NCBI GenBank assembly: GCA_001662655.1
Contig: KV460225.1
Strand: one strand, 5' to 3'
DNA: 64,000 bases
From: Pseudogymnoascus verrucosus
Taxonomy: Eukaryota
Shown: piece by piece, positions 39,981 through 64,000 of the stretch
Position numbering within the stretch: position 1 is the first letter of the stretch
How the letters are laid out: the number at the start of each line of letters is the position of its first letter
Notes under the pieces: generated by a model
The model's input: only the letters and a program-made list of their open reading frames with translations
Told to the model about the DNA's origin: nothing
Databases searched by the model: none
Translations under genes and position numbers: made by a program

Positions 39981-39983
39981 CTA

Positions 39984-40880: not shown

Positions 40881-41422
40881 TGTTACGGCTCTCGGAGGAA
40901 CTATGGACCGTGTAGGGTTCTGGTGTTATAACAGGATATCTACTACCGGACTCTCGACATGGTCAATTTCCACTTCCGTCTTTGGTCCTGAGCTGTTGCT
41001 GCTTTAACCTGAGCTTTGGGTGAGCTAGACTGATCTGTGACTGAGCTTGGCTGAGCAAGCATGAGCCGGGTCTGCATTAGCGCAGACCCGGCTCAGGCGA
41101 TGCATTAGCGCAGATGACCGCCAGATTATGCTGCTCGACAATATTTGCTGCCCGCTAAAATTGGAAATTTCCATGTACGCCAGTTCTGGGCTTCTATCTC
41201 ACGTGGTACTAAGTGCGTGCGACGCTAGCACTACCATTCGAGCAAGCTTTCCATTAGGCTCTGATCTTTGGCAATGCTTGGCATGCGGGGAAACTACAAT
41301 GCTGACAAATATTTGACTCCAGACTCCAGATCGCCCTGTTTCCCTATAGAACTATTAGGCCTGATGCATGATTAGACGAGCTTCTAATCCAATAAAGGCA
41401 TACACACTATAACTACCGTACA
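40881..41422. mobile_element. Candidate solo LTR
   Basis: Starts TGTTACGG and ends CCGTACA (near-inverted termini). AATAAA lies ~30 bp before the end. No target-site duplication visible. Confidence 0.3.
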
Positions 41423-41601
41423 TGTCGCACACGAATCAATCATCGGGTCTCAAAAATAGCAATACCTCCAGTCTTATCATCGACATATTTTCAGAGGGGG
41501 TACTTGACCGTAAAATTCGCGACTGCAACATAACTCCTCCATTGAAGAGATTATTGCTCACGATAAGTGAATGACGCCCCGCATTCTTGCATATATACAT
41601 C

Positions 41602-44170: not shown

Positions 44171-45127
44171 GTTTTGATGGACTCTATGTACTAGAATAGT
44201 GTAAAGGAGCGGAATATAAGGTTGGAGGCGAACCTGCTGCAAATAACCCTGCGCACAAACGTAAACCAGAGCAATGTCTGACATTCGGGATGCACCTTGC
44301 CTCTATCTACTCGGACCAGCTATTGACACGATTACGAGTTGCTCCTAGCACTACCCGTTTAACGCGGTGATTGCTATCGCCATACTCAGCAATGTATTAC
44401 TATAAATCAAGTATGAAACGTGGATAGAGGCCATTAGAACGTGCCGTCGAAATTTTCTGCTATGGGCTGTGTTGTATCACTGCTATTACCTCGAATCTAA
44501 GGAGCACGCCTGAAATTGAGACTAGGGCAAGTATGCAATTAAGAGCCTATCAGCGTCCAAATAATATAGCAATATGTGACGGTCCCAGGGACAAAAAGTG
44601 ATGCTTCGAAAGCAAGAATGAATTGCCCTCTTGCTTGCGATACATTGTTTATGACTAAGGCGGTAAACAATAAGTTATCATAGATGCGTGTAAGACGCTG
44701 ACACTGGCAAATCTACGCCAACTACGGTAAGCGCGGCCTTTCGGAAATGCCTAGCGTACGCGAATCTTCCATCCAATCGCTGACGTCGGCGGTGCCTAGC
44801 GCGCCTCTTACTTTCAGTTGGTTCCTAGAGAAAACAGAGTTGGTTTAGAACACTTACCGATGAGAACCATATTGCTGAACCCTCCCGATGTCGAGCAGGG
44901 AAATGGGCCTAATAGCTCCGAAGTCAACCCGAACAGCAAGTTTCTCCACGATGAAATTCGTGACATCTCCTCGCCCGCAGGGAATTTCACTCATCACGTG
45001 CTGACCTCTGGCCCAGCATCATTTCTCAAGTCTTATTTGCTCTATATCCTGCCCATATCGTGCCATCATTTTCTTGTCTGCCGCCCTCATACTCTTGAAC
45101 AAGGTATATTTTACCTCTCCGATCCTA

Positions 45128-47580: not shown

Positions 47581-47801
47581 CGATATGAAGTCTCAAGGAA
47601 AAGATAATTGTTGAGAGTGCGGCACGTTCGGGGCTATATAGTTAGAAGGATGAATTGCAAAAGTTATTTGAATTTAATGACAGTAGGGTTGGATTTACTG
47701 TTGCTTAGGGTTAAGTGTTGTATTAGGGTATATGTTACTGATAAACTATGCTATACAAAATATTAACCCCTCCTAGCCTTATAGGTATTTCTATAACTTT
47801 C

Positions 47802-49421
47802 CTAAGGATCTTCTGCAATAATCGGTTCGTCGCTGAAGAGGTCAATGTGAGTTGTAGCAAACTTCCTCGCTTTGATTTTTTGGTCGAACAGCGCATCTAA
47901 TTCCGCAAATGTACGGCCTTTTGACTCGGGCAGCCGGAAGAAGCTCCATACAAGGCATAGGGTGCAGGATCCCGCCCAGAAGAATCCCGTCTTCGCTTTC
48001 CAGTTCCAAGCCGTTGGGTTAAGCATGTATGGAGTGATAACGCCGTTCACGATGCTGAAGACATTGTACACGATCCTTGCTAGCACGATCGTCTTGGCGC
48101 GGAGCCGTAGCGACGAGATCTCTGAGACAATTGAATAGCATACAGGGCCCACAGTCAGGTTGTAGATCAGAGCAAAGACAAGTAACATGGAACCAGACGC
48201 CCACTGTGCGCCTTTGTTGGAGTTTGGAGCAATGCCAGTGAAGCCAATAATGTACAGCAGGGCGGCAAGTATAGTGAGACCGACAACGTATAGCCTACGT
48301 CGACCGAAGTGGCTCAGTAGAAACCAAGATAAGACGGTTCCAATAAAGCCGATAGCGTACTGGCCCATGGAAAAATTGAAGGAGTTGGTAGGGTTGATTC
48401 CAGCCTGGATGAAAAAGTAGGTCGAATTGTTCATGAATGCCGACCCACAGAGATTTTGGATCGCCCATGTCACGCACGAAATTTCCGTTCGGCGAAGGTC
48501 AGTACCTTTGAAGCAATCGAAGTACGAGGTTCCGCTTGACATTTCCTTCTCGATTTCGTTGGTGTGGATCATCATTGCCACCGTGTTATCAGCACTTTCG
48601 ATGTCGTCGGGGTCTTGGAGTGCCAGGCGCTGGATAACCGCTTTAGCTTCGGCCTCTCGTCCTTTCCTAACTAACCACCAAGGCGATTCAGGTGCAAAAA
48701 GAACGCCAACTATAATGGGCATTGGCCACATCCATTGGAGTGCGTATGGAATGCGGTAAGCCCATTCGCCCTGACGCGTGAGACAGGCACGTAAAATACC
48801 AGAAGCCAGCAATTGACCCATGACCCAGCAAAGGTTGACGTATGTTGTTAAGTAAGCTCTGAGAGCGACAGGGCAAATCTCAGCCGCGTATGTGGTCGGG
48901 ACTGTTTGAAAAACACCCCATGGAATGCCCATAAGAATACAGCCGATTTGGAGTGTTATAATGTTGGGTGCGAAGAATGGGATAAAGATGAAGGCAGTAA
49001 TAATAGACAATGCTATAAGCATTATCTTCCTGTAGCCGATCCGTTCCGCAAGATAACCAGCGACGAAGAGGCCGAGTATCTCCCCAACAGCGGCTCCGTT
49101 ATAGAGACCAGCCTGCCACGCTGCTGAAAGTTGATAGCTGCCATCAGGTTGGCGCTGGCCGTACTTCGTTGTCCAGGGAAGAAAGGCGAGGAATGAGGTG
49201 ATGAGGAGTAGATCATACCCCTCCATGACAACAGCCGTGGAGAGGAGTATAGACCAGCCAATGGCTTTGGGGTAGCGCCTGAGTGCTTCGCTCAGGGACA
49301 TTCTCAGCTCCTTTTCCGTCGCAATCTTAGCCTGTGCTTTGAGGTCTGTCTTTAAGCATGTATTGTCCGTTCCTAAGGACTGGTCCTCAACCATCTCGAC
49401 ATCGTCCTTGGTGAAATTCAT
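47802..49421 (-). CDS. Alpha-glucoside:H+ symporter (maltose/trehalose permease, MAL11/AGT1-like MFS), intronless
   Basis: YPKAIGWSILLSTAVVMEGYD, GIPWGVFQ, LRAYLTTYVNLCW, PESPWWL and PESKGRTFAELD are maltose permease subfamily motifs. Confidence 0.92.
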   Translation of the reverse strand: MNFTKDDVEMVEDQSLGTDNTCLKTDLKAQAKIATEKELRMSLSEALRRYPKAIGWSILLSTAVVMEGYDLLLITSFLAFLPWTTKYGQRQPDGSYQLSAAWQAGLYNGAAVGEILGLFVAGYLAERIGYRKIMLIALSIITAFIFIPFFAPNIITLQIGCILMGIPWGVFQTVPTTYAAEICPVALRAYLTTYVNLCWVMGQLLASGILRACLTRQGEWAYRIPYALQWMWPMPIIVGVLFAPESPWWLVRKGREAEAKAVIQRLALQDPDDIESADNTVAMMIHTNEIEKEMSSGTSYFDCFKGTDLRRTEISCVTWAIQNLCGSAFMNNSTYFFIQAGINPTNSFNFSMGQYAIGFIGTVLSWFLLSHFGRRRLYVVGLTILAALLYIIGFTGIAPNSNKGAQWASGSMLLVFALIYNLTVGPVCYSIVSEISSLRLRAKTIVLARIVYNVFSIVNGVITPYMLNPTAWNWKAKTGFFWAGSCTLCLVWSFFRLPESKGRTFAELDALFDQKIKARKFATTHIDLFSDEPIIAEDP

Positions 49422-50178
49422 GGTTGTGACAAAAAGGGAAGGAGATGTTCTAAGACGATTGGTCGGTGGAACGACAAGTCGAAGTCACGATGATAAAGAG
49501 GATAGAGTATCAAGGTAAAGATAGAATGAACAGAGAAAGACGGGGAATCGACGGACGGAGATTCATGCTCTATTTGTTCTCGGCTTACCCCAGACATTTA
49601 CCCCGGAGTGGGGCCTCGGAGAGGGCGCTACTGCTCTCTTTAACAGGCTGCGCTCTGAGAGGTCGGGAGTGCGGGGAGACAATTGAAGGCAAGTCTATAC
49701 CGACGCTCACAATCTAACCATCTTGGTGACATCTCACGGTTGTGGCAGGAGGGACGAAGTACAGGCTATCCAATATGTCTTAGGTTTCCGTTTAAGCTCG
49801 CTGGACCACTTCCTATCCATGCTTCAAGTTGCAAACTATAAAATCAGTAGCTACAGCGCGTGTACACTAAATGGCAAAGGTTGTACAGACAGATTCAGCG
49901 AGAGTTACTAAACCACGACGTTAGTGTACTAATGAGGCCTTGCCCTCAACACGGATGACTAATAGTTTATACAAAATACTCATAGCCTGCCCCTACAGCG
50001 CAAGGTGCCAATTGAACCACAGAGCCACAGATCTATTGCACAGCACCCTGAGACTCCGCTCTCCGAGCTCGGTACATACATACTTACTGAGGCAATTAAA
50101 ACGTATGATCCGATCGATTTAATGGTGAAGCTACGAAGTGCGCCCGAGTGATGCGGCGTTGGCCATTAGACGTAAGAC

Positions 50179-50375
50179 GCGCGCTAGGCCTTTCCGACAT
50201 GCCGGCTCTTGAGGCCAATATGTGATTGGAGGGGCGAGGAGTGTGCGCTAGGTATTTCCGAAGGGCCGTGCTGCAAGAATTTTGGCTTGCGGGGCGAGGA
50301 GCGTGCGCTAGGTATTTCCGATGGGCTGTGCTGCAAGAATGTAGGATTGCGGGCAGAGGCGCTAGGCATTGCCGG
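50179..50375. repeat. 60-bp direct repeat (2 near-identical units plus 2 partial)
   Basis: ggggcgaggag.gtgcgctaggtatttccga.gggc.gtgctgcaagaat at 50231 and 50291. GCGCTAGG also occurs at ~50181 and ~50359. Confidence 0.85.
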
Positions 50376-50776
50376 TAATGTTGCGGGGACAGACATTGGT
50401 CACACACACGTATCTGGAAACAATTGAATGAGGAGAGGAAACTCGATCTTGAGACCCAGTAGCTTATGACTAACCCGCTCAAAATCGGGTGAAACACACT
50501 ATTTGGCAATTGCAATTGTAACAGCGGCGAAAGATTCAATGATGCCAAAGGATAGTGGAGACAGAAGGGAGCTTCGCCTTTTTTTAAGAAGTCCGGAAGT
50601 TTTGCTGGTGAGGGTATATATATTGCCGTTTACCTTCTCCTATGACCTTTCTCATAATACAGATTTTCCCAGCAAGAGACGTCCTGTATACACGAAAACT
50701 ATCACTCTTTACGAAAGTTTCTTTGTAGGAACGTAAGGGAAGATTTGTGGGATCTAATAAAGTAGGCAATAGGAAA

Positions 50777-52395
50777 ATGGCGTGGGAAGAACCGCGGAAA
50801 ACGGGAATGCTCTATCGCAAGGTGGGCAATTCGGGCCTCCATGTTTCAGTGCTAGGGTTGGGGGGTTGGTTAACGTATGTATTTCCTGTTCTGCTCCCTT
50901 CCTAGTGCCTAATTCTGTGAGTTACTACAAATACTGATATGAGGTGCTGGATAGTTTTGGCGGACATGTTGAGAATGGTGAGTGTTAGTCCTTTTTTTCC
51001 GGGGATTGGGGGGGGGGGGAGAGGTTGCGCGTGAGAGATACGAGTCAAATGACAGATTGACGCTCCTTCGGTAGGGAACTGGTAAATTGGGCTATAGGAC
51101 TGACTTGGTGATCTGATGTGCAGAGAAGACAGCCGCGGTTATGAAGCAAGCGTATGACTGCGGTATCAACTTCTTCGATACTGCCGAGAGGTATGTGCCA
51201 ACCCTATTCCTACCCATATCTGAAATTTGACTTGGGAGCTTGAGAGTCAACTCCGAGACTTTTGCGAGATTATGCTGAGATTATTTTGAGGATAATGCTA
51301 ATGAGGTACTAGCTATTCTGCTGGTCAATCTGAAATCGCGATGGGCAAGGCGATTAAAAAATATGGATGGAAGCGAAATGATCTTGTTATCTCGGCCAAG
51401 GTAAAGTTTTTAGACCTCAGACTTGCTCCTTTCAGACACAACAGCGCGTCAAGCATAACTTTCCCCATTTGTTTCCTCTACATATCAAAACTCGCGCCAC
51501 TCTCTCTATTAGCTGCTCCTAACACCGCATAGCTCAACTGGGGCGGCGCCTATGGCGAAATCTTAGTCAATAACCACGGCCTCTCGCGCAAACACATCAT
51601 CGAAGGCCTCTCTGCCTCCCTCGAGCGCCTTCAGCTCAGCTATGTCGACATCATTTACGCGCACCAACCCGATCGCCTCACCCCCATGGAAGAAACCGTT
51701 CGAGCCTTCAACCATGTCATTAACCAGGGACAAGCCCTCTATTGGGGAACTAGCAAATGGTCTGCAGACGAGATAACGGAAGCATGCGGGATTGCGAAGC
51801 AGCTTGGGATGATCGGGCCCATTGTAGAACAGCCCTGCTATAATGTCCTGGAGCGGACGAAGGTGGAGGGCGAGTTCCAGCGGTTATATACGAGGTGTGG
51901 GATTGGATTGACGACCTTTAGCCCGCTGAAGATGGGCATGTTGAGTGGGAAATATGAGGGCGCAAAGACGTTGCCATCGGGTAGCAGGTTTGCAGAAAGC
52001 GAAGATAAGTTTGCGGTTTTCATGAAGGGACAGGTTGGGGGTGAGGATTGGAATACTACAGTGGAAAAGGTGACCAAGCTGAAGGTTCGTTATCTACCCT
52101 GCTGTCCTAGTTTTGACCCTACTTTCCCTGGATGGCCGCGTGTGAGGATAAGAAACTAACATGGCTGTAGCCCATCGCACAACGTCTTGGTGTTACGCAG
52201 AGTCAGCTGGCGCTGGCATGGTGTCTGAAGAATGAAAACGTAGCGTCAGTGATTACGGGTGCGTCAAGGCCAGAGCAGATTGTCGAGAATGTCAAGTGTC
52301 TGCAAATTCTGGACAAGTTGACACTGGAGGTACTAAATGAGATTGATGGGATATTGGGGAATAAACCGCCCCTTGATCCTGCGAGACAGGACTAG
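50777..52395 (+). CDS. Aldo-keto reductase, Kv-beta (KCNAB)-like subfamily, multiple introns
   Basis: [61 protein letters not shown] and [11 protein letters not shown]. Confidence 0.88.
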
Positions 52396-52752
52396 GTGAA
52401 TGTGTAAGGGAGGGGGTATGGGGAAAGAACGGCATGGGACGGGAGCATGCAGAATGAGAGACGGAATCAAAAAGAAAGATCATATTAAGTAGTAACTTAG
52501 ATGAGATTTGATTTTCTGAATGCTTTAGTTGAAACACAGACTAAAGACGTTAGGGTTAGTGAAAACTGTTAAGAGTAGATACCGGTGCTCGTTGGCGCGC
52601 TTCTCGCCTCCGAGAGCTGCTACCGTCCTGCATGCAGCATCCCCGTCCGTCCCCGCGTCCTCGCAGCATCTCCCTCCGCGTCCTTGCCGGCGTCTTCTCC
52701 CGCGCCTGCTGTTCCACCTGCAGCGGCGACTGCACTCCCGTCCGCACAGCCA

Positions 52753-53485
52753 ATGGCACCTGCCGTCGACCCCAAGGTTTGCTGCCGGCCAGCTAATGCA
52801 AATACTCTCGATTCCCAAGAGGATCAGATTGGCCGATCGCTCGAACAACGACGTCCGCAAGGCCATCTCCCCTGAGGTCCGCGAGACCACCATCCCCGAG
52901 CACCGCGGCGTTCGCAACATTATATCCGGCCACAATAGGGCGGTCTCCATGCCGATCCTTCCCATGACGGTATACGAGTCTATCCACCAGGGGTTCCACC
53001 CCCCAACTCGCACCCCTACGACGTTGCACGAGGAAATCTCCACCCTCATCAACGACCAATACGGTCCTGGCCCTGCAGAGCAGGATGAGGATACGCCTAT
53101 GATCCCGGACAATTTAACCAACAACTCCGCTGAATCTTACCGCCGCTATGCGGCTCAGCCCTATGTCGCCACGTCGCCGAGCTTCGGGAGTTCCATAAGC
53201 ATTACTCGGGCTACCGTCAACTCCACGGGACCCTCTAACAACACTGCCGCGGTCGACTTCGCCGCAGGCAACACTAGCCCTACGAACGAAACCAGCGAGG
53301 CCGAATTCCGGGCTGCCAGCCAAAGGGCAGCTGCCGCGACCCGCGCTGCCTGTCTGCTCATACGAAATGCTCCTAACTTCAACGTTGCGGAAACTTGGAT
53401 GGAGGATTTAAACAATGACCTTGAGGATGTTATCGAGGACGAGCACGAGTTTAGTATGGAAATCTACAGGCCAAATGAGAACTGA
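52753..53485 (+). CDS. Hypothetical orphan protein; probable short intron 52777-52819
   Basis: MAPAVDPK|gtttgc..gctaat..aag|RIRLADR joins a GC-rich open frame ending at 53485. No recognisable domain. Confidence 0.45.
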
Positions 53486-53599
53486 AGCTTCCTCCTATAG
53501 TTTACAACCACAATTTGTTTCCTTTCACTAGCGCATCGTCCCTACGGCGCCACAATGGCCTCCTCCCGCGACTGCTCTTTGTTTCTGCTCCGGTGCTAG

Positions 53600-54757
53600 T
53601 AGAGATCGACTTACCTTAGCTTAGTGAAGGCGAATCTGCCAATAGTATAATAGAGGCTATTACAACAGCTTATGGTAGAAATATACTCATAGCGTATATA
53701 AGGATCAGTCGCTTTCCCTATGGCTGCAGTTAAGAGAGCTTCTAGGACTAAGCTTATGCTATAGGTTAATACTACAAAACTAGCGGCTATAGTTACTCTA
53801 ATGACAGCGATAGATGCTACAGATGTCTAAGGATTCATAAGGTGCATCTTCGCGTACATTCTAGATTCTTAATAGCTATTACATAGGGTAAGGGTTAGGT
53901 AGTAGAAGTATAAGTCTTATTACTTAATTAGGTAGGTAGTAGCAGTAGTAGTAGCGCGTATAGGGTTACTAAACCTAATTAGGATTGTTTCTACATTTAA
54001 GTAAGGCATAATACCTAATTAGGATTGTTATAACATACTAATACTAATTTAGATTATTACAACAGGTAAGTATATGCTTAAAGAGGAAGTAGTACTTATT
54101 AATCTAAGCATAGAGGAAGTTAAGGAGGTCCCTAGTTAGAACAATATAATATAGCAATAGAGAAGAGCCATTACCTTTGTTATTAGCATTATAGAGGTCC
54201 TATTACACCTACTACTAATAGATCTCTTCTATTATAGACATAGAGATCTAATGCTCTTCTTAGATGCTATACAACTTCTATTAATTATTAAGTAGGTTAG
54301 TATAGGCCTGCTTCTTACTATAGAGGTAGGAAAATTCATATACCCCCTTTAAGAAGGTAATTCCTCTACCTTCCTACTATAGAGATCTTATATATCTAGG
54401 ATCTAAGGTAAGATTCTCTATAGAATTGTTATTAAATACATAAACCTTTACTAAATTAAAAGGCGTCTTAATAAGTCTATAAAACTAAGAGTATATTAGC
54501 CTATCTTTAGTCTTAGCTCCCTATAGTGCTATAAAAAGCGTCTAGCCTATTATATCCTATATTATAGCCTAGGTATATATTATACACTTTAGGTTGCCTT
54601 TAGCCTTACTTCTGTTAGGATTAAGGACTGCCTATGTTTTTATATATACGTTAAGGTAGCACTTCTTCTATAGGAACACCTTAGCCTTATAATCCTTAAG
54701 GAGCTAATTATAAGGTAGTGTACTATCTTTAGACATTACCTACTTTATACAATAAAG
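53600..54757. pseudogene. Heavily RIP-mutated, AT-rich relic with residual intron signals
   Basis: Extreme TpA enrichment. Several gtaag/gtagg...ctaat..tag intron-like remnants on the + strand. No ORF. Confidence 0.5.
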
Positions 54758-55221
54758 CCACTTCTCGGGGTCGGAGCTGCTGGATTTGGCAGGGCGCGGT
54801 TGCTGCTTTACGCACCCTTTACCTCCACGCTAACCCAAATGCACGTGATCACAGATCGCGTCACAGCCCCCCACATCGGTTACCCTTCAAACGGTTCCTG
54901 GTTCCTGGTCCCTATGGTCTGCTTTCTAGTTTCCGTTTCTCTCTTTTCTGCTCGCCCTAAGGTACCACCCACCGGCCATCATGATCATGAGGGCCACTAC
55001 ACGGTGTACCACCCGGTCGCTCGGACTGGCCACTTGTTTAAATACCTTGCTATCCCGTGGCCTACATCGTGTACCACCTATCTCTTCCTAAAAGCTGCCC
55101 TCACGCCCTCGAACAAGTCAGCCTAATAGGTATTCGTCTCCTAAAGGCAGCCCCCCGCGACTTAGCATTTAGAGCTCTGCGTTCATCTCATCATCCTAGG
55201 TCTATCGCTAAGTCGCCTGTC

Positions 55222-57785
55222 ATGCCCACTAACGGAATAGGCAACCGGCAACTGCCTACTCTAAAGCAGAACATGATAAGCTTCGTCACTAAACGGACGA
55301 GACAAGCTCAACAGCTAAAGAAGCCTAAGCGTACCGCTAAGGACTACCGGGTTATAGGACGAGAGCTTAGCACTAAATCTTAGAAACCTAACGATGCTAA
55401 AGCTACGAAAGAGAATGTCTAAGGCATATAGCGCAAGTAGTCTAAGTAAGTCAACAATGTCCCCTTTAAGGCTCCTATCACTTACTCGAGATAAGGTTCT
55501 GCGCTTTTTAGGGTGTGAAAGACGTGCGAGGAGCTATTTAACAATGCGATAAAGCGACGACTATGTTGTTCCTATGCTTCATCTACGAGAATTGTAAAGT
55601 TAAGGCGTTTAACTCTGTCTACTAGTACTTGCTGTAGTTTAAACAACTCTATAATCGGGTTAATAGGTGCTACATAGATACAAACGATGCAAAAGAAGTG
55701 TTTAAGGTATGCTCTTGTATTCTATGTTATTTATAGAAGACATGGCACTAACACCACCGTTCTTATAGTATCTAGATATGACCTTAGCAGACGAATTCAA
55801 ACTTAGACGGACGATGAAGGCTAAACTAGTGTTAGGAGCAGACGATATCCTTCTCCTCCTCACTTACCTCTAGGCTTAGGATACCTCCGTATTTCCGACT
55901 AAGGACTAACGGTTAACGACTACAACAATAATGCTCCTTTCTATCTATACTAGTTGTCGACCTATAGAGCTAGTTGACGCTTTAAAGCGTGTAGGCGGAA
56001 AGACAACCTCTTGCAAACGCCCACATATAGAAGTCTAGGATTCCGTTGATGACTTAGATGAAGATGAGAGTGTAGATAAGGGAGAGGGATTAGATAAGCC
56101 GAATTATTAAGGGCGAGCACCATAGGATAATAAAAGCGATTCTGAATATAATAATGATAACTTCGACCCTAACACTATAGAACGGAAATATAAGAGTTTA
56201 TGCTATAAGGACATCTGCCTCTAGATTGTTCGGAACCCTACATAGGGAGAACGAGACCTCCTAGGCATAGAGATCACTTTCTCCCATTATAAAGGTGCTG
56301 ATAGGAAACCGAAACCGTATGTCCCTCTATAATGCCTCTCCCTTATCCTAACTAACTTCACGACTTTAGCACGACTTTCCTCTTTCATAAAGAGGCCCTT
56401 CCTATACTTTGCCCTATTAGCCATGTCTTGGCTCACGTAATAAAGGATGATGCAATTGAGGTTAGAGGCTCGTTGCACGCAGAGCCTTTCTTTACAAGTC
56501 ATCTGCAGCACCCTACGAAAGCCGTATTGATTCACTAGAAGCTAGAGATGCTTAAAAGGCCTATATTTCGTCAGGTGGTGCACTCGTGCGATTTGTTCCG
56601 TACGTTGGAGTAGAAGGCTCTACGCTACTCGACCTACGCTTACTACCTTGATCGTCTCGGCTAGGCGACTGGTTTTAAGCAGAAGTTGACGAGCTACTAT
56701 TTTCGCAAAGGCATAGGAAACGCTGTTGACGGTAAACTTCTCACTGACCATAGCTTGCTTTAACTGACGATTGCGTAGGGGCTGCGACGACAGCAGTTCG
56801 CGACTAGATACTAAGGCACAATCCCTAGACTAGAGTATTCTCTAGATCATACATCAATGAGAAAGTCAGATTCATCGTTCAAGATGCAGTGCTAGACCAG
56901 CCTACCGACTCTGGCTTTCTCTAGGCCTTCACACACATGAGTCTCACCTGTGATCCCCGCGCGCCTCAGACAGTACCTAACCATGTTCGCGATGACCTCC
57001 CGCCTAATCTAGAGCTAGTGCAGCTAAAGCTTAAGCAGCAAGAGCTTCGCTTAGAGCTGAAGCGTTTGTATGGACACGCATTTGTTCAGGGTTCAATTGG
57101 CACAGAAGCTAGTGAAGAATATCGTCAATTAAATCGACAGATTGCTACAGTAACTAAGACGTTTAAGCGAGAGCTCAAGAGGGAGTACCGCCGAGACTAC
57201 TTCTACCAAATCCACAACGAAGAACTTAAGAAGATCATTAAGAAGGTCAAAGTCGTGACACCGACTTATGTTGAGCCAGTCGTTAAGCACCAGCTGTCGG
57301 AACGGACCTAGCTTCAAGAAATCATGTGCAACCTTTCTAAGGATCTAAGTGCACGTGATATCGTCATACGACGGATTCATGCCATCGACACAATGGTCGC
57401 TCTATCTCGTCGCTAAGAGGTCTAGTGTCATAAGTCACGGCTAAGCAAATCGTCCTCGGGGTCTCCTCTTGTAGGGTCCCCCGAGGTGAAGGAAGAATCG
57501 CCTGTTCCTGAAACATTTCCCGTGAAGTGCAAGGAAACTCAGTGTATATTTTGTATTGGTGACGATCGTCAAAGTTATGACAGGCGCATGCGCACATTTT
57601 CGAAACCCGACAAGATGAAGGACCACGTTGAGAGGCATTTAGAAAAGAGGACACTAGGAAAGTATGAATGCTGCCATCCAGTTTGCAAGGCCGAGGGGCT
57701 ACTTCTCGACAACATCATCCTTTTCAAGAATCACGTGGAGATGGTGCATGGCATTAGACTTCGAGACCTAAAATACATCTCTTGA
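55222..57785 (+). pseudogene. RIP-inactivated DUF3435-type tyrosine recombinase (Starship captain-like) with C-terminal Zn-finger-like region
   Basis: Reading through stops gives YT(S)CRP.EL (~55950), LTSYYFRKGIGNAVD|GAATTAVRD*ILRHNP*T.VFS.SYINEKVRFIVQDA, MSLTCDPRAP, EYRRDYF and CIFC..H..RH..CCHPVC..H..H. Stops are mostly TAG/TAA at Q/W-like positions. Confidence 0.8.
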
Positions 57786-57970
57786 AGAGCAATTGGTCCT
57801 TGTAGCATTGTCCATTCTGAACCCCACCTTAAACATTGCCTTCTGCCTTCATTCTGCAAGTATGTGGCGTATATACTAGGACATCGTTCAACTAATCGTA
57901 TATCCCCGTAACCATCAAGCCGTCACGACGTTTCTACCGCGAAGTGAAATAGATGTTCCCGTGCAGGTTC

Positions 57971-58755
57971 TCAACGCCGACTCCGGAGCCAGCGCTGCAC
58001 GTTTCGCAAGGGTGGATCTTCGTCCGTCCAGCGGCCCATAGTCTAGTCTGAGTTACGCAATAAATTGTAGATGTTCTCATCGGTGACTGTTGCGAGTTCC
58101 TGTATTACCTGTCAGCACTGTATCCTCGCTCCTATCGTGGTGGTTTTGTTTCAAAATTCGCCAAATCCAGAGGGGAAGAGAACAACTGGGTCATGTAGTA
58201 AAAATGAAAAACGCACAGCTCGCAGAGCTTGGTCGCCAGATACCAAAGCAGGCACATGTGATGGATCGGGCCTCAGTAACACGCTATCCCGCCATGCGAC
58301 CCAGCGCATGGCTGCACTCTGCCTCATACATATCTTCTGCGCCTCGTGTCGCCTCGAAAAACTATCCAGCAGCACCTGCGTCAACTCCGCCTTCTCCTGC
58401 TCCGCCGGGCCGCTCCGGCCGGTTGGCACGCGCGTGTCGGCCGCCACGTTCAGGACATGCTGCCCGTCCACTGAGCATTGGCGGAGCGCCGCGTAGCCTT
58501 CGGTATAGAAGCCATCCGGGCGAGGAGAGTCGCAAGTTACTGAGACAATGCTGTACTGGAGGGCGCGGAAGTCGGAGAGGAGGTCGGCGACGCGGGTCGC
58601 CCGCGCATCGTTTACTGGAAAGTGGATCAGTCTCGATTGCACCGTGCGGTGGCAAGGTGGCAATTTATGAGCATCTTGTCAAAGTTGGAGTCGATCAGGG
58701 TGGCGGAGACGGGCGGGAGCTTAAGAAATGTGGAATACTCACATCCGTCTGCCAT
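57971..58755 (-). pseudogene. Conserved-looking small fungal hypothetical protein gene (2 introns) with one in-frame TAG at 58043-58045
   Basis: MADG|LNDARATRVADLLSDFRALQ..FYTEGYAALRQC..ALRA|ELATVTDENIYNLLRNSD*TMGRWTDEDPPLRNVQRWLRSRR*. Confidence 0.65.
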
Positions 58756-59127
58756 TGGGGCGATAAAATATATCCGAACCAACTGCGTGGTATTTGGGCC
58801 GAATGCCGCTCTTGGCAGTCCCGTGCTTCCATATAAAATCGGCCACACAAGGCAAATACCGCTCCAAATACCGCTTAACAGGTGAGATATTATTCCCCCT
58901 TTCGAGAGCCAGTAGAAATCCCAAACCCCAGTAATCGTATTGTAGAGTAGTATTTGAGTGTAGAACCAATTTATATCTTGGTCCGAATTATATTGCGTTG
59001 AATAACCTAACTCCTTATTTGGGGTTACCCCAAGCCGTGCACCCAATTATAAATATCAATATGGAAAATCAAACGCAACTCTGGCAATTGATAGCCTCGC
59101 GGTCCATAATGGTCTGGCCTATTACTA

Positions 59128-59545
59128 CTAACCCACCGATCTAAAGTTTATGCAAGGCAGAGCGGACGGGATTGCGTAGTTCTCGAGGCTCTCGATGACG
59201 CGCTTGATGAAGGGGTGGTGGGGGACGGAGCCCAGGGCGTCATTACCAATTCCCGTCGGGAGACTGCGACGCAGCCAGGCGGGGTATTCGAGCATAATCT
59301 CGAGGCGTCTTGCGCATCCGTCGTCGAGATCAAGGTAGATGCCGCCATAGTGGTCGAGGACGAAGTAACGTATCGCGTCGGCGCGTTGGACGGGGAAGGG
59401 GTATGAGTCGAAGGTCTCGAGAAACCCGCCGTATTCCTTCCGAATGAATTCGCGGGAGAGAGAGTTAGTCAAGAGCTTTTATTCGCAGTCTGGATGCAAG
59501 GCGATGCATGATTTCTGGCTATGCACCCATTGTGCGGGGGGTGCC
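59128..59545 (-). pseudogene. GT32 mannosyltransferase (MIPC synthase SUR1/CSG1-like) fragment
   Basis: SCIALHPDCE*KLLT..SREFI..FLETFDSYPFPVQRADAIRYFVLDHYGGIYLDLD..PTGIGND..PHHPF. It has an in-frame stop, no N-terminus and is cut after LPCI. Confidence 0.8.
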
Positions 59546-60619
59546 GTGAGCCAAATTGGGTACAAGCCTGTATAAACCAGGAGAACAACCTCTGTTCTCT
59601 TTCCGCTCGATGGCACGAAGCGATGCATTTCGTTCGCAAGCTGGGCAATATTAATACGCGAACGAAGACTGCTCAGGAAGTGGAACAATAATTGATTTCG
59701 GAGAAGAAGGTGATGGCAATTTCGACCAGTGTCACACCCTTGACCAACCCGCCAGGTCGGTATTTGGGAATGACGTAGGTCCCATTCATCCAGGTATGAA
59801 ACAAGGCTCTCCACCGTGACCAAGGCTCTACTTTGCTAACAGGCAGTCTAGTGTTTGTGACACAGGGTACTGAAGGCGAGGAGACATGCTTCGAGGAATT
59901 TGAAATCGAATCCGGATATTGCCAGGGTTTTGGGTTTGATTTGCGGTCTTGGAAGGGGCGTAATTGAATAGTACTGCACAAGCCCGTCTCCGCAAAATAT
60001 TCGGGGCTACTCTGCAAGTCTGCGTGTTTGCAGAGCTAAGGAGTTGACGGGGTGGAATCAACAGTTTCTTTTCTACTGTAGCCTACTGTACGTAGAACCT
60101 ACAGTCCTCATTTGGACTGGGTGGGAATTGAACAACTTTACTCGGGATAAATATATGCCGCCACAGACACCGGAGATGGGCTCATTGCTCATACGTCGTC
60201 ATCTGCGGGCGCTGTTCATTATACTGTTTTGCTCATCGTAATTCCCGAGAGGTAGAAGTGCTACCCTAGTTTACGGACCTCAGCCGGAGTGCGAGTCATT
60301 GTTATTATCAGGCTCAGCGTCCTTTAATTCCTGCTCTGGGACCACCGAGAAGCTAGGAGAGAGAAGACCTTGGATAACGATCTTCGTGGATAGTCTTCCA
60401 ATATATGGATGTTGAAGGACCTCACTGATGGAGCCTGCCTTAGTGTCTCCCGTTTTGTAGATAAGATAAAGAGATAAGTAAGCCCTGGAGCATAAATAGT
60501 TAGGCCTTGCCCTTCAAATTGACGTGAACCTATCGAAATCGCCAATTTTTTTTCCATTCTAATTCGAGCTCCATTCCTTATATTCGTCAATAGCTACCAC
60601 GAACATAATATCCATTACG

Positions 60620-61807
60620 ATGGCTCAGGTCCAAGGCCACTGCGACGCCCGGTTTTCCAAGCTACGCGACTTAATGCAAGAGTTTATCGTGTCCGGACAA
60701 GACGTCGGTGCCAGTTTGTGCATTAATATTAACGGCGAGGATAACGTGGTGGACATATGGGGGGGGTACGCTGACCCATTGACCAAGAAACCATGGGAAA
60801 AGGATACGGTAGTGAGCGTCTTCTCGACCACGAAGCTAGTCACCAACCTGGCGGCTCTAATGCTAATATCGCGTGGTGTGCTTCGCCCCGAGGACAAGGT
60901 GGCCCAGCACTGGCCTGAGTTTGCAGCAAACGGGAAGTCCGAGGTTACTGTCGGCCAAGTGCTAGCCCACACAGCGGGTCTCAGCACGTGGCAAGACAAT
61001 ATGACACTGGAGGAAGCGTGCGATGTCGAGGCAGCAACCGACAAGCTGGCGCGCCAGGCACCGCTGTGGGCTCCCGGAACCGCCATGGGATACCACGCTG
61101 TGACGCAGGGATTCCTCGTCGGGGAGCTGGTGCGAAGGAAAACGGGAATGTCAATCGAGAAGTTCGTAACGGAGGATATTTGCCGACCGCTGGGCGACGG
61201 GGCGGACTTCCAGCTCGGGTGTCGCAAGGAGGACTGGAACCGGGTGGCCCCCGTCGTACCTCCACCGGGACCTTCGATCCAGAAGGTGCTTAGCCAACTA
61301 CCGGAATACGATCCAGACTCGCTCCTCGTGCGCACCATTTGTAACCCCATGTTCAGCGCCGAGGATGCAAACTCTGTGCTCTGGCGGTCCAGCGCGTTGG
61401 GCTCAGTCAACGGCCACACAAACGCTAGGGCGTTGGTTAAGATCCTCTCCTGCTTCTCGCTCGGCGGTACATGTGCCGAAGGAGGCCATCGCCTGCTGTC
61501 GGCCGAGACGGTAAAACTAGCGCTTACGGAGCATGCGATTGGGAAGGATGTGGTAATGGGGCGGAGCGGGAGGCGTGGACTTGGGATTTACCTCACCGGG
61601 TCGGGGTCGGGGGTCGTCGAAGGCAAGTTACCGGAGGGCAGTGTTGGGTGGGGTAGCGGATGGGGCGGTTCGATCGTGGTTATGGATAGCGATAGGAAGC
61701 TCACGATCGCGTATACCATGAACAAGATGCTAAACGATAATCATCCTTCTCCAGCAGCATACATTAAGGCAGTCTATAAGATACTTGGAGTTACCCTGGC
61801 TGTCTAG
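60620..61807 (+). CDS. Beta-lactamase-fold serine hydrolase (class C/family VIII esterase-like), intronless
   Basis: FSTTK (SxxK), LAHTAG, PGTAMGYHA (catalytic Tyr), GWGGS and AYTMNKM. Confidence 0.92.
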   Translation: MAQVQGHCDARFSKLRDLMQEFIVSGQDVGASLCININGEDNVVDIWGGYADPLTKKPWEKDTVVSVFSTTKLVTNLAALMLISRGVLRPEDKVAQHWPEFAANGKSEVTVGQVLAHTAGLSTWQDNMTLEEACDVEAATDKLARQAPLWAPGTAMGYHAVTQGFLVGELVRRKTGMSIEKFVTEDICRPLGDGADFQLGCRKEDWNRVAPVVPPPGPSIQKVLSQLPEYDPDSLLVRTICNPMFSAEDANSVLWRSSALGSVNGHTNARALVKILSCFSLGGTCAEGGHRLLSAETVKLALTEHAIGKDVVMGRSGRRGLGIYLTGSGSGVVEGKLPEGSVGWGSGWGGSIVVMDSDRKLTIAYTMNKMLNDNHPSPAAYIKAVYKILGVTLAV

Positions 61808-62415
61808 GATCACGGCGAATGGTCTACATGTGCCATTATCTGAGATAAAAGGCGCAGAGCCATTTCTTCTGTATCAAGTCTTAAGCACGGCCTCAAAGTG
61901 CTTTACAATCTCAAGAGTACTTTACAATCTCAAGAAACTAGAATTGATATAACAGAGAAAATTCACGGAACTGTCTCGCAGTTCTGCAACTAGATGGAAT
62001 CAAAGTGTGCAGTATGGTTTGCCCTGATTAGGTAAATAGAGGAATGATCAAGTAGGAAAGAGGCAAAAAGTGGCATCGTTAATTATTTTTAATCCAATTC
62101 CCCATTATAGTCCATATCCGTCCACGTCCTCAGGAAAGTGACGCGCAAATGATTCTTCATTCTTTCGTCCCTAAGAATAACCCCTACTCCATGTCTGCCA
62201 AGTTACTCTGGTTTCAGTAGAGGATTGTGCTACGAACCCTAGGAATGCTTATTGAAGGACAAACTACTATCAGATGTAGTCACATGAGGCAATATGACGT
62301 GTGCTCACAATCTCAACTCTGGTAACCTCTAATATCTTGCGGCAGGCTCCCTATCTCCGTGCACCTAAGAGTGATCCACGGTATCATTTCAAGATGGAGA
62401 AGGCACTTCCCAACT

Positions 62416-62478
62416 TCAGTTGGAGCCTATCTCCAGGATGATTTCGTCGGGAAGGCGGCAAAAAGGTATGTCACCCAT
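62416..62478 (-). pseudogene. Possible F-box gene remnant
   Basis: MGDIPFCRLPDEIILEIGSN* resembles the LPxEIxxxI start of an F-box, followed by an immediate stop. Confidence 0.25.
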
Positions 62479-62952
62479 CACGTATATTGACTGGTATGAG
62501 GGGTTATCATCGCATCGCGATGTATGTATTACCGACTGTCGGTGAGTCCGAGATGAGCTAAGATAATAGGGTTATCATCAAATACGAAGTAGATTCTGAA
62601 GGCGAAAACTCATGAGGGATGAAACTGGAGTCGGAGGTCTAGGTCTGTGGAGCGTTATGAGTTATGATGCCGGACTGTGTGATCGTGGAGGTTGAGGAGA
62701 TGCAAGGCGAGCTGTGGAAGATGTGTCGGGGGATGTTGGAGAGAGGAGAGATGAGAGAACAGAGAGGGATAGTGATGAACTTATATTTGAGGCGGGGTAA
62801 GGGTTCGCGATTCCTTGCATTTCAGCTGGTTGAGGCGCAGCCTTGCAGCTTGTTGGTAGTCACGGGCACACGCACCACTCCAGCCAGGTGCCTCAGTATA
62901 TACTATTTTCGACAGGCTTTTGTCAGCATATTTTTGCCCCAGAATAGTAAAG

Positions 62953-63115
62953 AGGTACCCAAAAAAAGTTAGGTACCTGCAATTAAAGGTACCTGACTTT
63001 TTTCAGGTACCCAAAATAAATCAGGTGCCTGCTTCTACAGGTACCTTACATTTCTCCGGTACCTATAAAAAATCAGGTACCTGCTTTTAAAGGCACCTGA
63101 CATTTCTCCGGTTCT
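62953..63115. repeat. Array of GGTACC palindromes in a 52-bp higher-order repeat, 3 copies
   Basis: Cores at 62954, 62972, 62988, 63006, 63024, 63040, 63058, 63076, 63092 and 63110 (spacing 18/16/18). Confidence 0.88.
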
Positions 63116-63210
63116 TCAACTCGTTACAATAGCGCACTTGAAGCGATCCGATGCTCCTCTCTGAAAAAGCACGAATAAACGCCAGATGGATCTCTTTCCA
63201 CGGCACGCCA

Positions 63211-63237
63211 ATGATGACTAATTGCGTTAGTCATCAT
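63211..63237. promoter_or_regulatory. Perfect 11-bp inverted repeat containing two TGACTAA (AP-1/Yap1-like) sites
   Basis: ATGATGACTAA-ttgcg-TTAGTCATCAT, about 550 bp upstream of the ATG at 63781. Confidence 0.45.
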
Positions 63238-63780
63238 AACCCAGCTGATCAGGCGCGTTTCGGCCTTTGAGATGTGCTGAGCTTTTTCTCGCTGACTCCT
63301 ACTAGCAACAATTTGAGTGCGTTGTAGATGACCCTATATCGGATGCAGTAAGCCTGCATGCTTTAATTGCTTCCAGTATGTACTCACGTATCGTGGAAAT
63401 TTTGCTCTCCCACGCCGCGCACGGTCAGTGCCACTCCCTTTTGAAGCTCGGACGTAACTGTAATTCCAATATAGAAGCAGGTACAGGATTCAGCTGCGAC
63501 AAAATAATATCCCTTTCATTTATAGGTAATATCATCAACAACATGACAACAATGGGTGGAGGATCATTGGATGGAGGATCGACAACCTTAAATGGGGGGA
63601 AGATGGTGCGGGTTTGCGGGATAATCCCGCCTTTTAAAACGTTTCCCCAATTAGGCAGGCCAACACGACAAGTTAAGGCACCAGGAACACCATACTTACG
63701 TGGTCACACTCCACATACATAGCACTCCCTAGTAAATTACAATTATTTCTAGATATATCACAACAATAAAGATCTCTAAA

Positions 63781-64000
63781 ATGGGCCTCGATAACGGCGC
63801 AAGCGCTACTATCCATAAAGTGGAAGAGGCGAACCTCATAGCTGCCTTAGAGGAAGCCGTTCAAGCTGGCCTTCCCGGCATTTCTTGCACCATTGCTACA
63901 AAGAAAGGTGTTATATGGCAGGGCTGTGCCGGAGATGCAGATATCGACACTGGCTCACCCATTGAGGAGCGGCATCTGTTTGGGATCGGCAGCATCACAA
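63781..64000 (+). CDS. Second beta-lactamase/D-Ala-D-Ala peptidase-fold hydrolase, 5' part (runs off the window)
   Basis: MGLDNGASATIHKVEEANLIAALEEAVQAGLPGISCTIA..GDADIDTGSPIEERHLFGIGSIT: the PG motif and F.IGSIT leading into the SxxK lysine. Confidence 0.75.
   Translation, partial: MGLDNGASATIHKVEEANLIAALEEAVQAGLPGISCTIATKKGVIWQGCAGDADIDTGSPIEERHLFGIGSIT

What the first reader, a model, noticed from the sequence alone, without database searches (positions are those of the whole stretch)
54758..64000. Starship-like element: RIP-killed DUF3435 tyrosine recombinase heading a cargo-like gene string
Seen: the ORF track shows only fragments, but reading through TAG/TAA stops across four introns recovers candidate catalytic R (YTxCRP), R (YFRKG), H (LRHNP) and Y (SYINE) plus a C-terminal Cys/His finger. 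Known: DUF3435 captains lie first in Starship giant transposons with cargo downstream. Inference: a derelict Starship starting near 54.76 kb and extending beyond the window. RIP damage is largely confined to the recombinase, so it may instead have moved as a small captain-centred unit. The upstream trehalase group may belong to a neighbouring or enclosing element.
Basis: partly seen in the sequence, partly recalled or inferred. Interest (0 to 1): 0.75.

Follow-up and report, generated by a model that had tools for sequence, protein, structure and literature searches.

The report
RIP-killed compact Starship-captain recombinase element
A fungal mobile-element recombinase gene, destroyed by the fungus's own repeat-mutating defence, lies in a sharply bounded 3.1-kb repeated unit, and the neighbouring genes are not shown to travel with it.

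Summary
Window 55222-57785 (+) is a five-exon pseudogene of a DUF3435 "captain" tyrosine recombinase. It is collinear with intact 783-aa proteins of Pseudogymnoascus species. It carries 25 premature stops, all at Gln/Trp/Arg codons of intact copies, with a clear RIP mutation spectrum.

Independent copies (5 metagenome loci, 17 contigs in 4 other genomes) begin to match the window at 54744/54745, each with an unrelated sequence upstream.

The same comparisons also show a common 3' limit at 57880-57889. Two apparently intact copies that are 93.5% alike share nothing outside this 3.14-kb unit. No copy shares the window's downstream genes.

I therefore read it as a derelict copy of a compact, multi-copy, captain-only element (confidence 0.5). 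The alternative is the head of a giant Starship whose cargo runs off the window (0.3). No terminal repeats, no 3' end and no empty site were found.

The downstream DNA is accessory. It holds a fragment of a MIPC-synthase gene and an intact Mest1/STE1-like esterase. That esterase nests among Penicillium proteins at 92-94% identity, a pattern suggesting horizontal transfer.

The parts
53503..54744 (.). 5' flank. After about 140 nt of ordinary sequence comes a heavily RIP-degraded AT-rich block holding scraps of other repeats. It is not part of the captain unit.
   Evidence: GC 0.30-0.32, TpA/ApT 1.6-2.0, (CpA+TpG)/(ApC+GpT) 0.34-0.66. A 15163-nt contig of run X5 follows the window to 53502 and then runs on unlike it for 2655 nt (table 8). 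Loose ends lie at 53967-54060 (table 7).
54745..57889 (+). The repeated captain unit (about 3.14 kb): leader, five-exon recombinase pseudogene and roughly 100-nt tail.
   Evidence: Homology to independent copies starts at 54744/54745 (L001, L002, L005, L009; L006 at 54752). It ends at 57882-57889 (L001, L002, L006). L001 and L002 are 93.5% alike over 3144 nt and unrelated outside it. Loose ends 'before' 54744/54745 occur in 17 contigs of 4 of 4 runs.
54745..54810 (+). Conserved 5' terminal sequence, beginning TTATA(C/G)AATAAAGCC. It is a candidate recombination site.
   Evidence: It aligns in 6 of 6 copies that reach the end, including L006, which is only 71% alike overall. The upstream sequences are unrelated to one another.
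55222..57785 (+). DUF3435 tyrosine-recombinase (captain-type) pseudogene. Exons are about 55222-55446, 55494-55727, 55769-56317, 56371-56745 and 56778-57785 (HSP limits; splice sites not mapped).
   Evidence: Pfam PF11917 on three pieces. Collinear with P0005 residues 1-783. 25 premature stops.
57786..57889 (+). 3' tail of the unit. The common limit of homology lies at about 57880-57889, after ...ATACTAGGAC.
   Evidence: Alignment A1 of six copies. BLAST ends.
57896..57896 (.). Junction. In run X6 two contigs match from here rightwards and carry another, GC-normal sequence to the left.
   Evidence: table 7: '57896 before', 2 contigs, agreement 0.95. X6 contigs cover 58727-59347 with 1 difference and 59361-62418 with 13 differences (table 8).
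59137..59547 (-). Fragment of a GT32 MIPC-synthase (SUR1/CSH1-like) gene. Only the central part, about residues 70-207 of roughly 326, is present.
   Evidence: Pfam PF04488. tblastn with P0157 and P0168 matches only this stretch. The 299-aa public model P0154 joins it to an unrelated ORF at 58046-58615.
60620..61807 (+). Intact single-exon esterase of the beta-lactamase fold (Mest1/STE1-like, 395 aa) with a distribution that suggests horizontal transfer.
   Evidence: Pfam PF00144, E 1e-60. Identities and tree.
62954..63112 (.). Three tandem 52-nt repeats rich in GGTACC.
   Evidence: family D1.
63111..63209 (.). Fragment of another dispersed repeat family.
   Evidence: Loose ends at 63114 (before) and 63209 (behind), with mutually similar continuations in X3, X5 and X6. 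There is an 80% match in L011 in opposite orientation.
63781..64000 (+). Start of a second beta-lactamase-family gene, cut by the window end.
   Evidence: Pfam PF00144, E 4e-4, below the gathering score. ORF listed.

Best explanation
Window 54745-57889 is a dead copy of a compact, multi-copy mobile element of Pseudogymnoascus-type fungi. The element consists of one gene only, a Starship-captain-type (DUF3435) tyrosine recombinase with a double C2H2-like finger. A 477-bp leader precedes the gene, with a conserved first ~60 bp, and a ~100-bp tail follows it.

Inferred mechanism, by analogy with tested captains: the recombinase binds the two ends, excises the unit and re-inserts it by site-specific recombination. 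This leaves no footprint and needs no long inverted repeats.

Because the unit was present in several copies, RIP hit this copy during sexual cycles and turned 25 Gln/Trp/Arg codons into stops. RIP did not touch the unique neighbouring genes. The copy is now immobile. It could move only if an intact relative acted on its ends in trans.

On this reading the genes to the right (a GT fragment, an esterase and a second beta-lactamase-family gene) are accessory DNA that the unit abuts. They are not cargo shown to move with it.

Shown: the gene's identity, the RIP, multiple copies, both limits of the unit and the lack of shared cargo. Inferred: that the 3.14-kb unit is itself the transposing entity, and the recombination mechanism.

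Confidence by step: pseudogene identity 0.97; discrete unit with these limits 0.9; unit is the whole element 0.5.
For: Identity: Pfam DUF3435 on three collinear pieces. There is full-length collinearity with P0005, at 77-89% identity per exon block. In the family alignment R209, K320, R440/R441, H462 and Y473 are invariant or nearly so. The 16 best Foldseek hits of a poor model are all Cre recombinase.

RIP: there are 249 window-specific changes where L001 equals L002. Of these, 161 are C>T or G>A, 40 are the reverse and 48 are transversions. 99 of the 161 lie in CpA/TpG. L001 (18 vs 23) and L002 (38 vs 38) show no such bias. All 25 stops arise from such transitions.

5' end: homology starts at 54744/54745 in L001, L002, L005 and L009, and at 54752 in L006. 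That is 5 of 11 loci; the other 6 are truncated or cut by contig ends. Loose ends occur at 54744/54745 in 17 contigs (X2 7, X3 3, X5 3, X6 4) with unlike upstream sequence, agreement 0.56-0.64.

3' limit: homology ends at 57882-57889 in L001, L002 and L006, the 3 of 11 loci that hold a full-length 3' part.

Nothing shared outside the unit: L001 vs L002 are 93.5% alike over 3144 nt and share nothing else. tblastx of window 41000-54744 and 57886-64000 against all 11 loci gives 0 hits.

Small-element behaviour: six loci come from records sharing one accession prefix, RCNJ01, each in a different context. L001 and L002 have no stops; L005, L006 and L007 are decayed. Internal-deletion copies keep the first 42-120 nt (L009; joints 54829>57612, 54833>56723, 54866>57836).

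Core-type genes close by on both sides: L006 has a core-type TCP-1 gene 650 nt upstream and a DNA ligase I-type gene 6.5 kb downstream.

Family spread: the 90% cluster of P0005 has 18 members from at least 9 named Pseudogymnoascus genomes, several with 2 or more copies.
Against: Flank asymmetry argues for cargo. The 300 nt upstream are AT-rich in the window (GC 0.32) and L002 (0.18, only 118 nt held), and the upstream consensus is AT-rich in all four runs. The 300 nt downstream are GC-normal (0.44-0.52) in 7 of 7 loci. A small element landing in AT-rich DNA should have AT-rich DNA on both sides.

The unit sits in the canonical captain position and orientation at the left edge of accessory DNA that contains a gene with a horizontal-transfer-like distribution.

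L004, a 67%-identical but 5'-truncated relative, has a GST and a DUF3723 gene 4-10 kb downstream. DUF3723 is a recognised Starship companion (PMC9156397, passages).

One X6 contig joins 57844 to 62027 (table 5c). So another captain copy is followed by DNA like the window's 62-kb region.

Published same-navis Starships share on average only 13.4% of cargo (PMC11162782, passage), so unrelated downstream DNA is not unusual for Starships.

No empty site, direct repeat or inverted repeat defines the unit as a transposon. The 3' limit is less sharp than the 5' end (+/-5 nt).
Confidence: 0.5

Rival explanations
1. This is the derelict 5' end of a true Starship. The element starts at 54745 and its cargo (GT fragment, esterase, second beta-lactamase-family gene and more) runs rightwards beyond the window. 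Only the captain module was repeated in the genome, so only it was hit by RIP. Copies differ completely in cargo because cargo turns over fast.
For: The captain is the first gene, 477 bp from a sharp 5' end, and reads inwards. The upstream side is AT-rich while the downstream side is always GC-normal. The downstream DNA is accessory: the X5 contig leaves the window at 53502, and X6 contigs carry 57896-62418 at 99.6% or more next to other DNA. The esterase sits in a 100/100-supported clade with Penicillium proteins. L004 carries DUF3723. The X6 joint 57844>62027 links a captain tail to the 62-kb region. The literature describes RIP confined to the repeated parts of a Starship (PMC10104507, passage), cargo swapping (10.1101/2025.02.28.640899, passage) and AT-rich insertion sites for some families (PMC11162782, passage).
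Against: Four mutually unrelated downstream contexts (window, L001, L002, L006) all break from the captain unit within the same ~10 nt. Random cargo turnover would not do this. No cargo is shared with any copy. No DUF3723, FRE, PLP or NLR gene lies in 57.9-64 kb. The gene next to the captain is a fragment. In X6 the same right-hand DNA exists without this captain unit, with its breakpoint 7-16 nt from the unit's limit. L006 has core-type genes within 9 kb on both sides, whereas published Starships are 15 kb or longer. No 3' end, direct repeat or inverted repeat was found.
Confidence: 0.3
2. This is a chimeric junction made by ectopic recombination between two captain copies, or by a secondary or tandem insertion. 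The captain unit is a small element, but its present left and right neighbours were brought together by recombination between dispersed copies. Neither flank then reflects its insertion site or cargo.
For: The left and right neighbours have different partners in other genomes: X5 leaves at 53502, and X6 joins at 57896 to another sequence. Many dispersed copies are available as recombination substrates. This would explain AT-rich DNA on one side only.
Against: No reciprocal product or parental arrangement was seen. Run X2 holds the same left junction as the window: one contig covers 44001-54802 with 7 differences. The arrangement is therefore at least shared by two genomes. The idea is untestable with contig tables alone.
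Confidence: 0.15
3. This is not a mobile element. It is a decayed member of an ordinary host gene family; some databases label relatives 'FluG domain-containing protein'.
For: Database names only.
Against: The non-coding ends are sharp and shared, and flanks are unrelated in every copy. There are multiple copies per genome with deletion derivatives and RIP. It belongs to DUF3435, which the literature treats as the Starship recombinase family.
Confidence: 0.03

Closest known systems
Starship giant transposons and their captains (Hephaestus/HhpA, Voyager, Enterprise/Kirc and others)
   Same: A DUF3435 tyrosine recombinase is the first gene, close to a sharp 5' end and reading inwards. Insertion next to AT-rich or RIP-marked DNA is reported for some families. 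Inactivation by RIP gives a 'derelict' copy. Accessory DNA with a gene of horizontal-transfer-like distribution lies beside it. (Papers: PMC9156397, PMC11162782 and PMC10104507, passages read.)
   Different: The only sequence that copies share is 3.14 kb. No cargo is shared, no direct or inverted repeat and no 3' end was found, and no DUF3723, FRE, PLP or NLR gene lies in the window. Published elements are 15 kb or longer, because shorter predictions were discarded as likely false positives. The captain family (1 to 11) could not be assigned here.
'Orphan' captains, and Starship Family 11, for which no cargo-mobilising element is known
   Same: These are captain genes not associated with a delimited Starship. 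The literature reports that only 597 elements were delimited for 10771 predicted recombinases. In Paecilomyces about 19% of captains lie in full elements. The term 'orphan Captain' is used in 10.64898/2026.09.30.755575 (passages).
   Different: Orphans are treated in those papers as unannotated or fragmentary Starships. Here both limits of a small unit are mapped in several independent copies. Whether this family is Family 11 was not testable.
Engineered mini-Hephaestus and mini-Pegasus
   Same: These are small constructs made of the 5' end with the captain plus a 3' end, and they transpose. The captain can act in trans and leaves no footprint. They show that a captain-centred small unit is mechanistically plausible.
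   Different: They are laboratory constructs with 2 kb or more of native 3' terminal sequence and a marker gene. The natural unit here has only ~100 bp after the stop codon, and its mobility is untested.
Crypton DNA transposons (CryptonF, CryptonA)
   Same: It works like one: a compact element of one gene that encodes a tyrosine recombinase, without terminal inverted repeats (background in PMC13465315, passages).
   Different: The recombinase is DUF3435. PMC9156397 reports this as a clade as distant from Crypton recombinases as from bacterial ones. The 4-6-bp direct repeats of Cryptons were not found.

Membership tests
Starship captain (DUF3435 tyrosine recombinase) | Match to Pfam PF11917 above the gathering score | tested here: met
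   Pseudogene pieces score 32.7, 65.2 and 73.3 bits against a cut-off of 25.8. The intact homologue P0005 scores 228 bits over profile positions 2-418.
Starship captain (DUF3435 tyrosine recombinase) | Conserved catalytic Arg/Lys/Arg/His/Tyr positions | tested here: met
   R209, K320, R440/R441, H462 and Y473 are invariant or nearly so in 12 family members. The window keeps these codons in YTSCRP, YKGADRKPKP, YFRKG, LRHNP and SYINE. Assigning each residue to its catalytic role is from recall; there was no residue-by-residue alignment to Cre.
Starship captain (DUF3435 tyrosine recombinase) | Tyrosine-recombinase (Cre-like) fold | tested here: inconclusive
   The AlphaFold2 model of P0005 is poor (mean pLDDT 53, active-site region under 50). 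Foldseek's 16 best PDB hits are all Cre, but E is 3e-3 to 2e-2 and TM 0.40-0.46 by target. A PDB sequence-profile search found nothing relevant.
Starship captain (DUF3435 tyrosine recombinase) | Placement in one of the 11 captain families by the starfish models or reference tree | not testable with these tools
Starship element (definition in PMC9156397) | Captain is the first gene at the 5' end, in 5'-3' direction | tested here: met
   The 5' end is at 54745 and the ATG at 55222, on the + strand.
Starship element (definition in PMC9156397) | Flanking direct repeats (target-site repeats) at both ends | tested here: inconclusive
   No 3' end was identified. Local alignments of the unit's ends give no score above shuffles (p 0.49-1.0). 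Some 4-mers near the ends were judged to be chance.
Starship element (definition in PMC9156397) | Terminal inverted repeats (optional feature) | tested here: not met
   No partner of the 5' terminal 22-mer was found in the window with up to 3 mismatches, nor of its last 15 bases in the loci by exact match. No convincing pair appears.
Starship element (definition in PMC9156397) | Cargo that moves with the captain (sequence shared beyond the captain between copies, or an insertion polymorphism spanning captain plus cargo) | tested here: not met
   No shared sequence beyond 57889 in any of 11 loci, apart from scraps of 61 and 63 nt in L001 and a 99-nt repeat in L011. No contig bridges an empty site. 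This lowers 'it is a Starship', not 'it works like a captain element'.
Starship element (definition in PMC9156397) | Companion genes DUF3723, ferric reductase, patatin-like or NLR nearby (Starship-like region) | tested here: not met
   None among ORFs of 110 aa or more in 57.9-64 kb. A relative, L004, does have DUF3723.
Starship element (definition in PMC9156397) | Size of 15 kb or more | not testable with these tools
   The window ends 9.3 kb after the 5' end and no genome is held. The unit shared by copies is 3.14 kb.
Crypton | Crypton-type recombinase (for example DUF3504 for CryptonA), not DUF3435 | tested here: not met
   The only Pfam family hit is DUF3435.
Crypton | Compact single-gene element without inverted repeats, with 4-6-bp direct repeats | tested here: inconclusive
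   Compactness and lack of inverted repeats are met. Direct repeats were not found.
RIP (repeat-induced point mutation) | Excess of C>T and G>A, mainly at CpA/TpG, relative to unmutated copies, together with RIP indices | tested here: met
   161 vs 40 transitions, 99 of the 161 in CpA/TpG and 39 in CpG. TpA/ApT is 1.2-1.8 and (CpA+TpG)/(ApC+GpT) is 0.59-0.95 over 53-57.5 kb.

The most novel reading that the evidence does not exclude
Captain recombinases can live as ordinary small transposons. On this reading there is a self-contained 3.1-kb, cargo-less 'captain-only' element family with its own two ends. It multiplies to several copies per genome in Pseudogymnoascus and spawns internal-deletion derivatives. 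It tends to sit, always in the same orientation, at the border between AT-rich DNA and gene-bearing accessory DNA. Such units would be the minimal, perhaps ancestral, form of Starships. By occasionally using a distal surrogate 3' end they could be how new cargo, such as the horizontally spread esterase next door, is first captured.
Probability: 0.35. Interest if true: 0.7.

Novelty: new variant of a known kind. Interest (0 to 1): 0.45.

Why it matters
Most predicted Starship recombinases are not found inside a delimited Starship. The papers read here report 597 elements for 10771 genes, and about 19% of captains in full elements in Paecilomyces. Current pipelines discard anything under 15 kb.

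A family in which both limits of a 3.1-kb captain unit can be read off independent copies offers a concrete case to test. The question is whether 'orphan' captains are broken giants or a class of small elements in their own right, and what the minimal cis-sequences for captain-mediated movement are.

The family occurs across the genus that includes the bat white-nose fungus, with apparently intact copies in environmental DNA, so it is relevant to genome plasticity there.

The neighbouring esterase is a clean candidate for cross-class horizontal transfer (Leotiomycetes and Penicillium), whatever carried it.

If the plain reading is right, the locus itself is an inert relic.

Tried and rejected
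- No whole genome is held, so genomic copy counts and starfish-type comparisons were impossible.
- Earlier-findings look-ups returned nothing.
No contig of X3 or X5 lay on bins 59342-60008, 60676-61342 or 63344-64000. Almost none of X6 lay on 44001-53338. They would fit a presence/absence polymorphism of the right-hand block and absence of the left flank in X6, but a hole proves nothing. Summed contig depth over the unit (1.6-8 times the flank) is not a copy number either.
- Inverted- and direct-repeat searches were negative: (p 0.49-1.0 against shuffles).
- I considered short 4-mers shared between the 5' flank and the 3' limit in L001 and L002 as direct repeats. I rejected them as chance, because the supposed terminal bases are not conserved between copies that are 93.5% alike.
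- I considered 62.0-63.2 kb as the element's 3' end, on the X6 joint 57844>62027 and on L011 holding a captain scrap near a 63111-63209 match. This is not supported. 63111-63209 is a fragment of a longer dispersed repeat, because other copies continue alike on both sides. In L011 it lies in the opposite orientation.
- tblastx of both window flanks against the loci gave no hit.
- The 'loose end behind 57786' in X2 is not a boundary. The loose letters resemble the tail seen in the other aligned copies.
- The PDB sequence search found nothing relevant. The structure model is of low confidence.
- The Atlas look-up of ORF 58154-58678 gave no usable hit.
- Rfam on 39-64 kb found no 5S, tRNA or other RNA target.
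- Self-BLAST of the window found no second copy of the unit.
- Literature: searches for Starship with Pseudogymnoascus gave 1 paper, and its 3 mentions of Pseudogymnoascus (UVE1 loss and references) say nothing about Starships. Searches for cargo-less, solo, orphan or captain-only elements found no description of a delimited natural captain-only element in the held library. Supplementary tables of the starfish papers were not read and may list Pseudogymnoascus captains.

Full report
**What is there**

The window is fungal. Its first 39 kb carry housekeeping genes: Rxt3, CLN3, dynactin, an amino-acid transporter, PFK2, ribosomal S8e, DOCK and an alcohol dehydrogenase. From 41 to 53.5 kb come a trehalase, a sugar transporter and an aldo-keto reductase.

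Proteins identical or nearly identical to those encoded here are annotated in Pseudogymnoascus species.

In 1-kb windows the RIP indices are positive only for 53001-57500, 39001-41000 and weakly 24001-25000.

**The gene**

Three read-through translations with X at each stop hit Pfam DUF3435 collinearly. The profile positions are 2-83, 101-216 and 213-418, with E from 5e-8 to 2e-20.

The best full-length relatives of the C-terminal piece are two 783-aa proteins of Pseudogymnoascus (89% and 85% identity). Next come Rutstroemia, Sclerotinia and Monilinia proteins at 53-58%.

tblastn with P0005 covers residues 1-783 in five blocks between 55222 and 57782. The gene therefore has five exons and four introns, and it starts at the ATG at 55222.

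Against the intact copies L001 and L002, all 25 premature stops lie on CAG/CAA (13), TGG (9) or CGA/CGG (3) codons. No exon has a frameshifting indel.

Of the 249 changes private to the window copy, 161 are C>T or G>A, 40 are the reverse and 48 are transversions. 99 of the 161 lie in CpA/TpG and 39 in CpG. L001 and L002 show no such bias. This is RIP.

The family alignment keeps Arg, Lys, Arg-Arg, His and Tyr at fixed places and has two C2H2-like fingers at the C-terminus. A structure model was of low confidence. Even so, its 16 best PDB matches were all Cre recombinase at weak scores.

**The unit**

Contigs of four other genomes were laid on 44001-64000. In 17 of them (X2 7, X3 3, X5 3, X6 4) the match begins at 54744/54745, preceded by mutually unlike, AT-rich sequence.

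A scan of metagenome contigs with P0005 gave 11 loci. Homology to the window starts at 54744/54745 in L001, L002, L005 and L009, and at 54752 in L006. The other six loci are truncated or cut by contig ends.

Homology ends at 57882-57889 in L001, L002 and L006, after a shared ...ATACTAGGAC. L001 and L002 have no stops in their recombinase. They are 93.5% identical over 3144 nt and share nothing outside.

What recurs is therefore a 3.14-kb unit: a 477-bp leader with a conserved first ~60 bp, the gene and a ~100-bp tail.

Deletion copies keep the first 42-120 nt joined to later parts of the unit (L009; three joints). The 90% protein cluster of P0005 has 18 members from at least nine named Pseudogymnoascus genomes.

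**The surroundings**

To the left, 53503-54744 is mostly very AT-rich, RIP-degraded DNA. One X5 contig follows the window at 99.5% identity to 53502 and then goes on differently for 2.7 kb. One X2 contig covers 44001-54802 with 7 differences, so that genome shares the same left junction.

To the right, the 'glycosyltransferase' is only the middle third of a MIPC-synthase gene. The public 299-aa model fuses it to an unrelated ORF.

The gene at 60620-61807 is an intact 395-aa esterase of the beta-lactamase fold. Its identities to named proteins are:
- 98.7% to a Pseudogymnoascus sp. protein
- 92-94% to two Penicillium proteins (P. concentricum, P. cf. viridicatum) and 87% to P. fimorum
- 83-88% to proteins of Thelonectria, Aspergillus, Metarhizium (named Mest1), Fusarium, Clonostachys and other Penicillium species
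- only 51% to the nearest listed Leotiomycete outside the genus

I built a tree of 34 proteins, picked for taxon spread from the proteins returned; all other hits were left out. In it the window protein sits in a 100/100-supported clade of six with the three Penicillium proteins.

Two X6 contigs carry 58727-62418 at 99.6% identity or more. Two X6 contigs that match from 57896 rightwards have another sequence to their left.

**Weighing the readings**

For a compact captain-only element:
- the same two limits in mutually unrelated contexts
- no shared cargo
- several copies and derivatives per genome
- L006 with core-type genes within 9 kb on both sides
- RIP confined to the unit

For a Starship head with cargo:
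- the canonical position and orientation
- AT-rich DNA upstream in many copies, while the downstream side is GC-normal in 7 of 7 loci
- the accessory nature of the right-hand DNA, including a gene with a horizontal-transfer-like distribution
- DUF3723 downstream of the relative L004
- one X6 joint from 57844 to 62027
- the published low cargo similarity within a navis

I put the compact reading at 0.5, the Starship-with-cargo reading at 0.3 and a chimeric junction made by recombination between copies at 0.15. Nothing found here defines a 3' end, a direct repeat or an empty site.

**Comparison with what is known**

The recombinase is a member of the captain family by Pfam and by its conserved residues. 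Its family among the eleven described could not be assigned.

The locus does not meet the element-level definition of a Starship (flanking repeats, cargo that moves with the captain). It also does not meet the 'Starship-like' definition (companion genes), both as given in PMC9156397.

It works like a Crypton in being small and single-gene without inverted repeats, but its recombinase is not of the Crypton kind.

Engineered mini-Starships show that captain-centred small units can move, and that a captain can act in trans. In the held library I found 'orphan captains' mentioned but no delimited natural captain-only element. I did not read the supplementary tables of the starfish papers.

**Verdict**

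The copy itself is an inert relic. The interest lies in the family's compact architecture and in the neighbouring esterase.

Noticed in passing
window 60620-61807 (+): An intact esterase of the beta-lactamase fold. Its closest relatives outside Pseudogymnoascus are two Penicillium proteins (92-94% identity) and then proteins of Nectriaceae, Metarhizium (named Mest1) and Aspergillus (85-88%). The nearest listed Leotiomycete outside the genus is at 51%. The tree places it inside a Penicillium clade with 100/100 support. It is a candidate for cross-class horizontal transfer.
   Followed up: partly
window 58046-59628 (-): The public 299-aa gene model that is 100% identical here joins a central fragment of a MIPC-synthase (GT32) gene to an unrelated ORF with no known family. 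True homologues match only 59137-59547. The model is probably a mis-annotation of a gene fragment.
   Followed up: partly
window 39500-39900 and 40540-40900: Two short AT-rich, RIP-like blocks bracket a small GC-rich ORF on the minus strand (39987-40535, no Pfam family). They sit at the transition from housekeeping genes to the trehalase/transporter group. Just upstream, at 39316-39514, lies a direct repeat of a ~72-nt unit.
   Followed up: no
window 62954-63112: Three tandem 52-nt repeats built around GGTACC/AGGTACCTG. They are followed at 63111-63209 by a fragment of a dispersed repeat that is present in several copies in three other genomes.
   Followed up: partly
window 57931-58773: This stretch recurs at about 93% identity in other contexts in runs X3 and X5, in X5 inside a 66.9-kb contig. 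The copies replace 58111-58209 with 100 other letters. It is a low-copy repeat or paralogous fragment of unknown nature next to the captain tail.
   Followed up: no
L004 1829-13935: A 5'-truncated relative of the captain (67% identity) is followed by a glutathione S-transferase gene and a long DUF3723 gene on the opposite strand. This is the pairing used in the literature to call a region Starship-like.
   Followed up: partly
L002 3446-5002 (+): The gene directly downstream of an apparently intact captain copy is an F-box/LRR-type protein by Atlas look-alikes (scores 0.97-0.98).
   Followed up: no
window 14957-15396 and 37789-38050: Short local direct repeats (74-84% identity) in intergenic DNA, seen in the window's self-comparison.
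   Followed up: no
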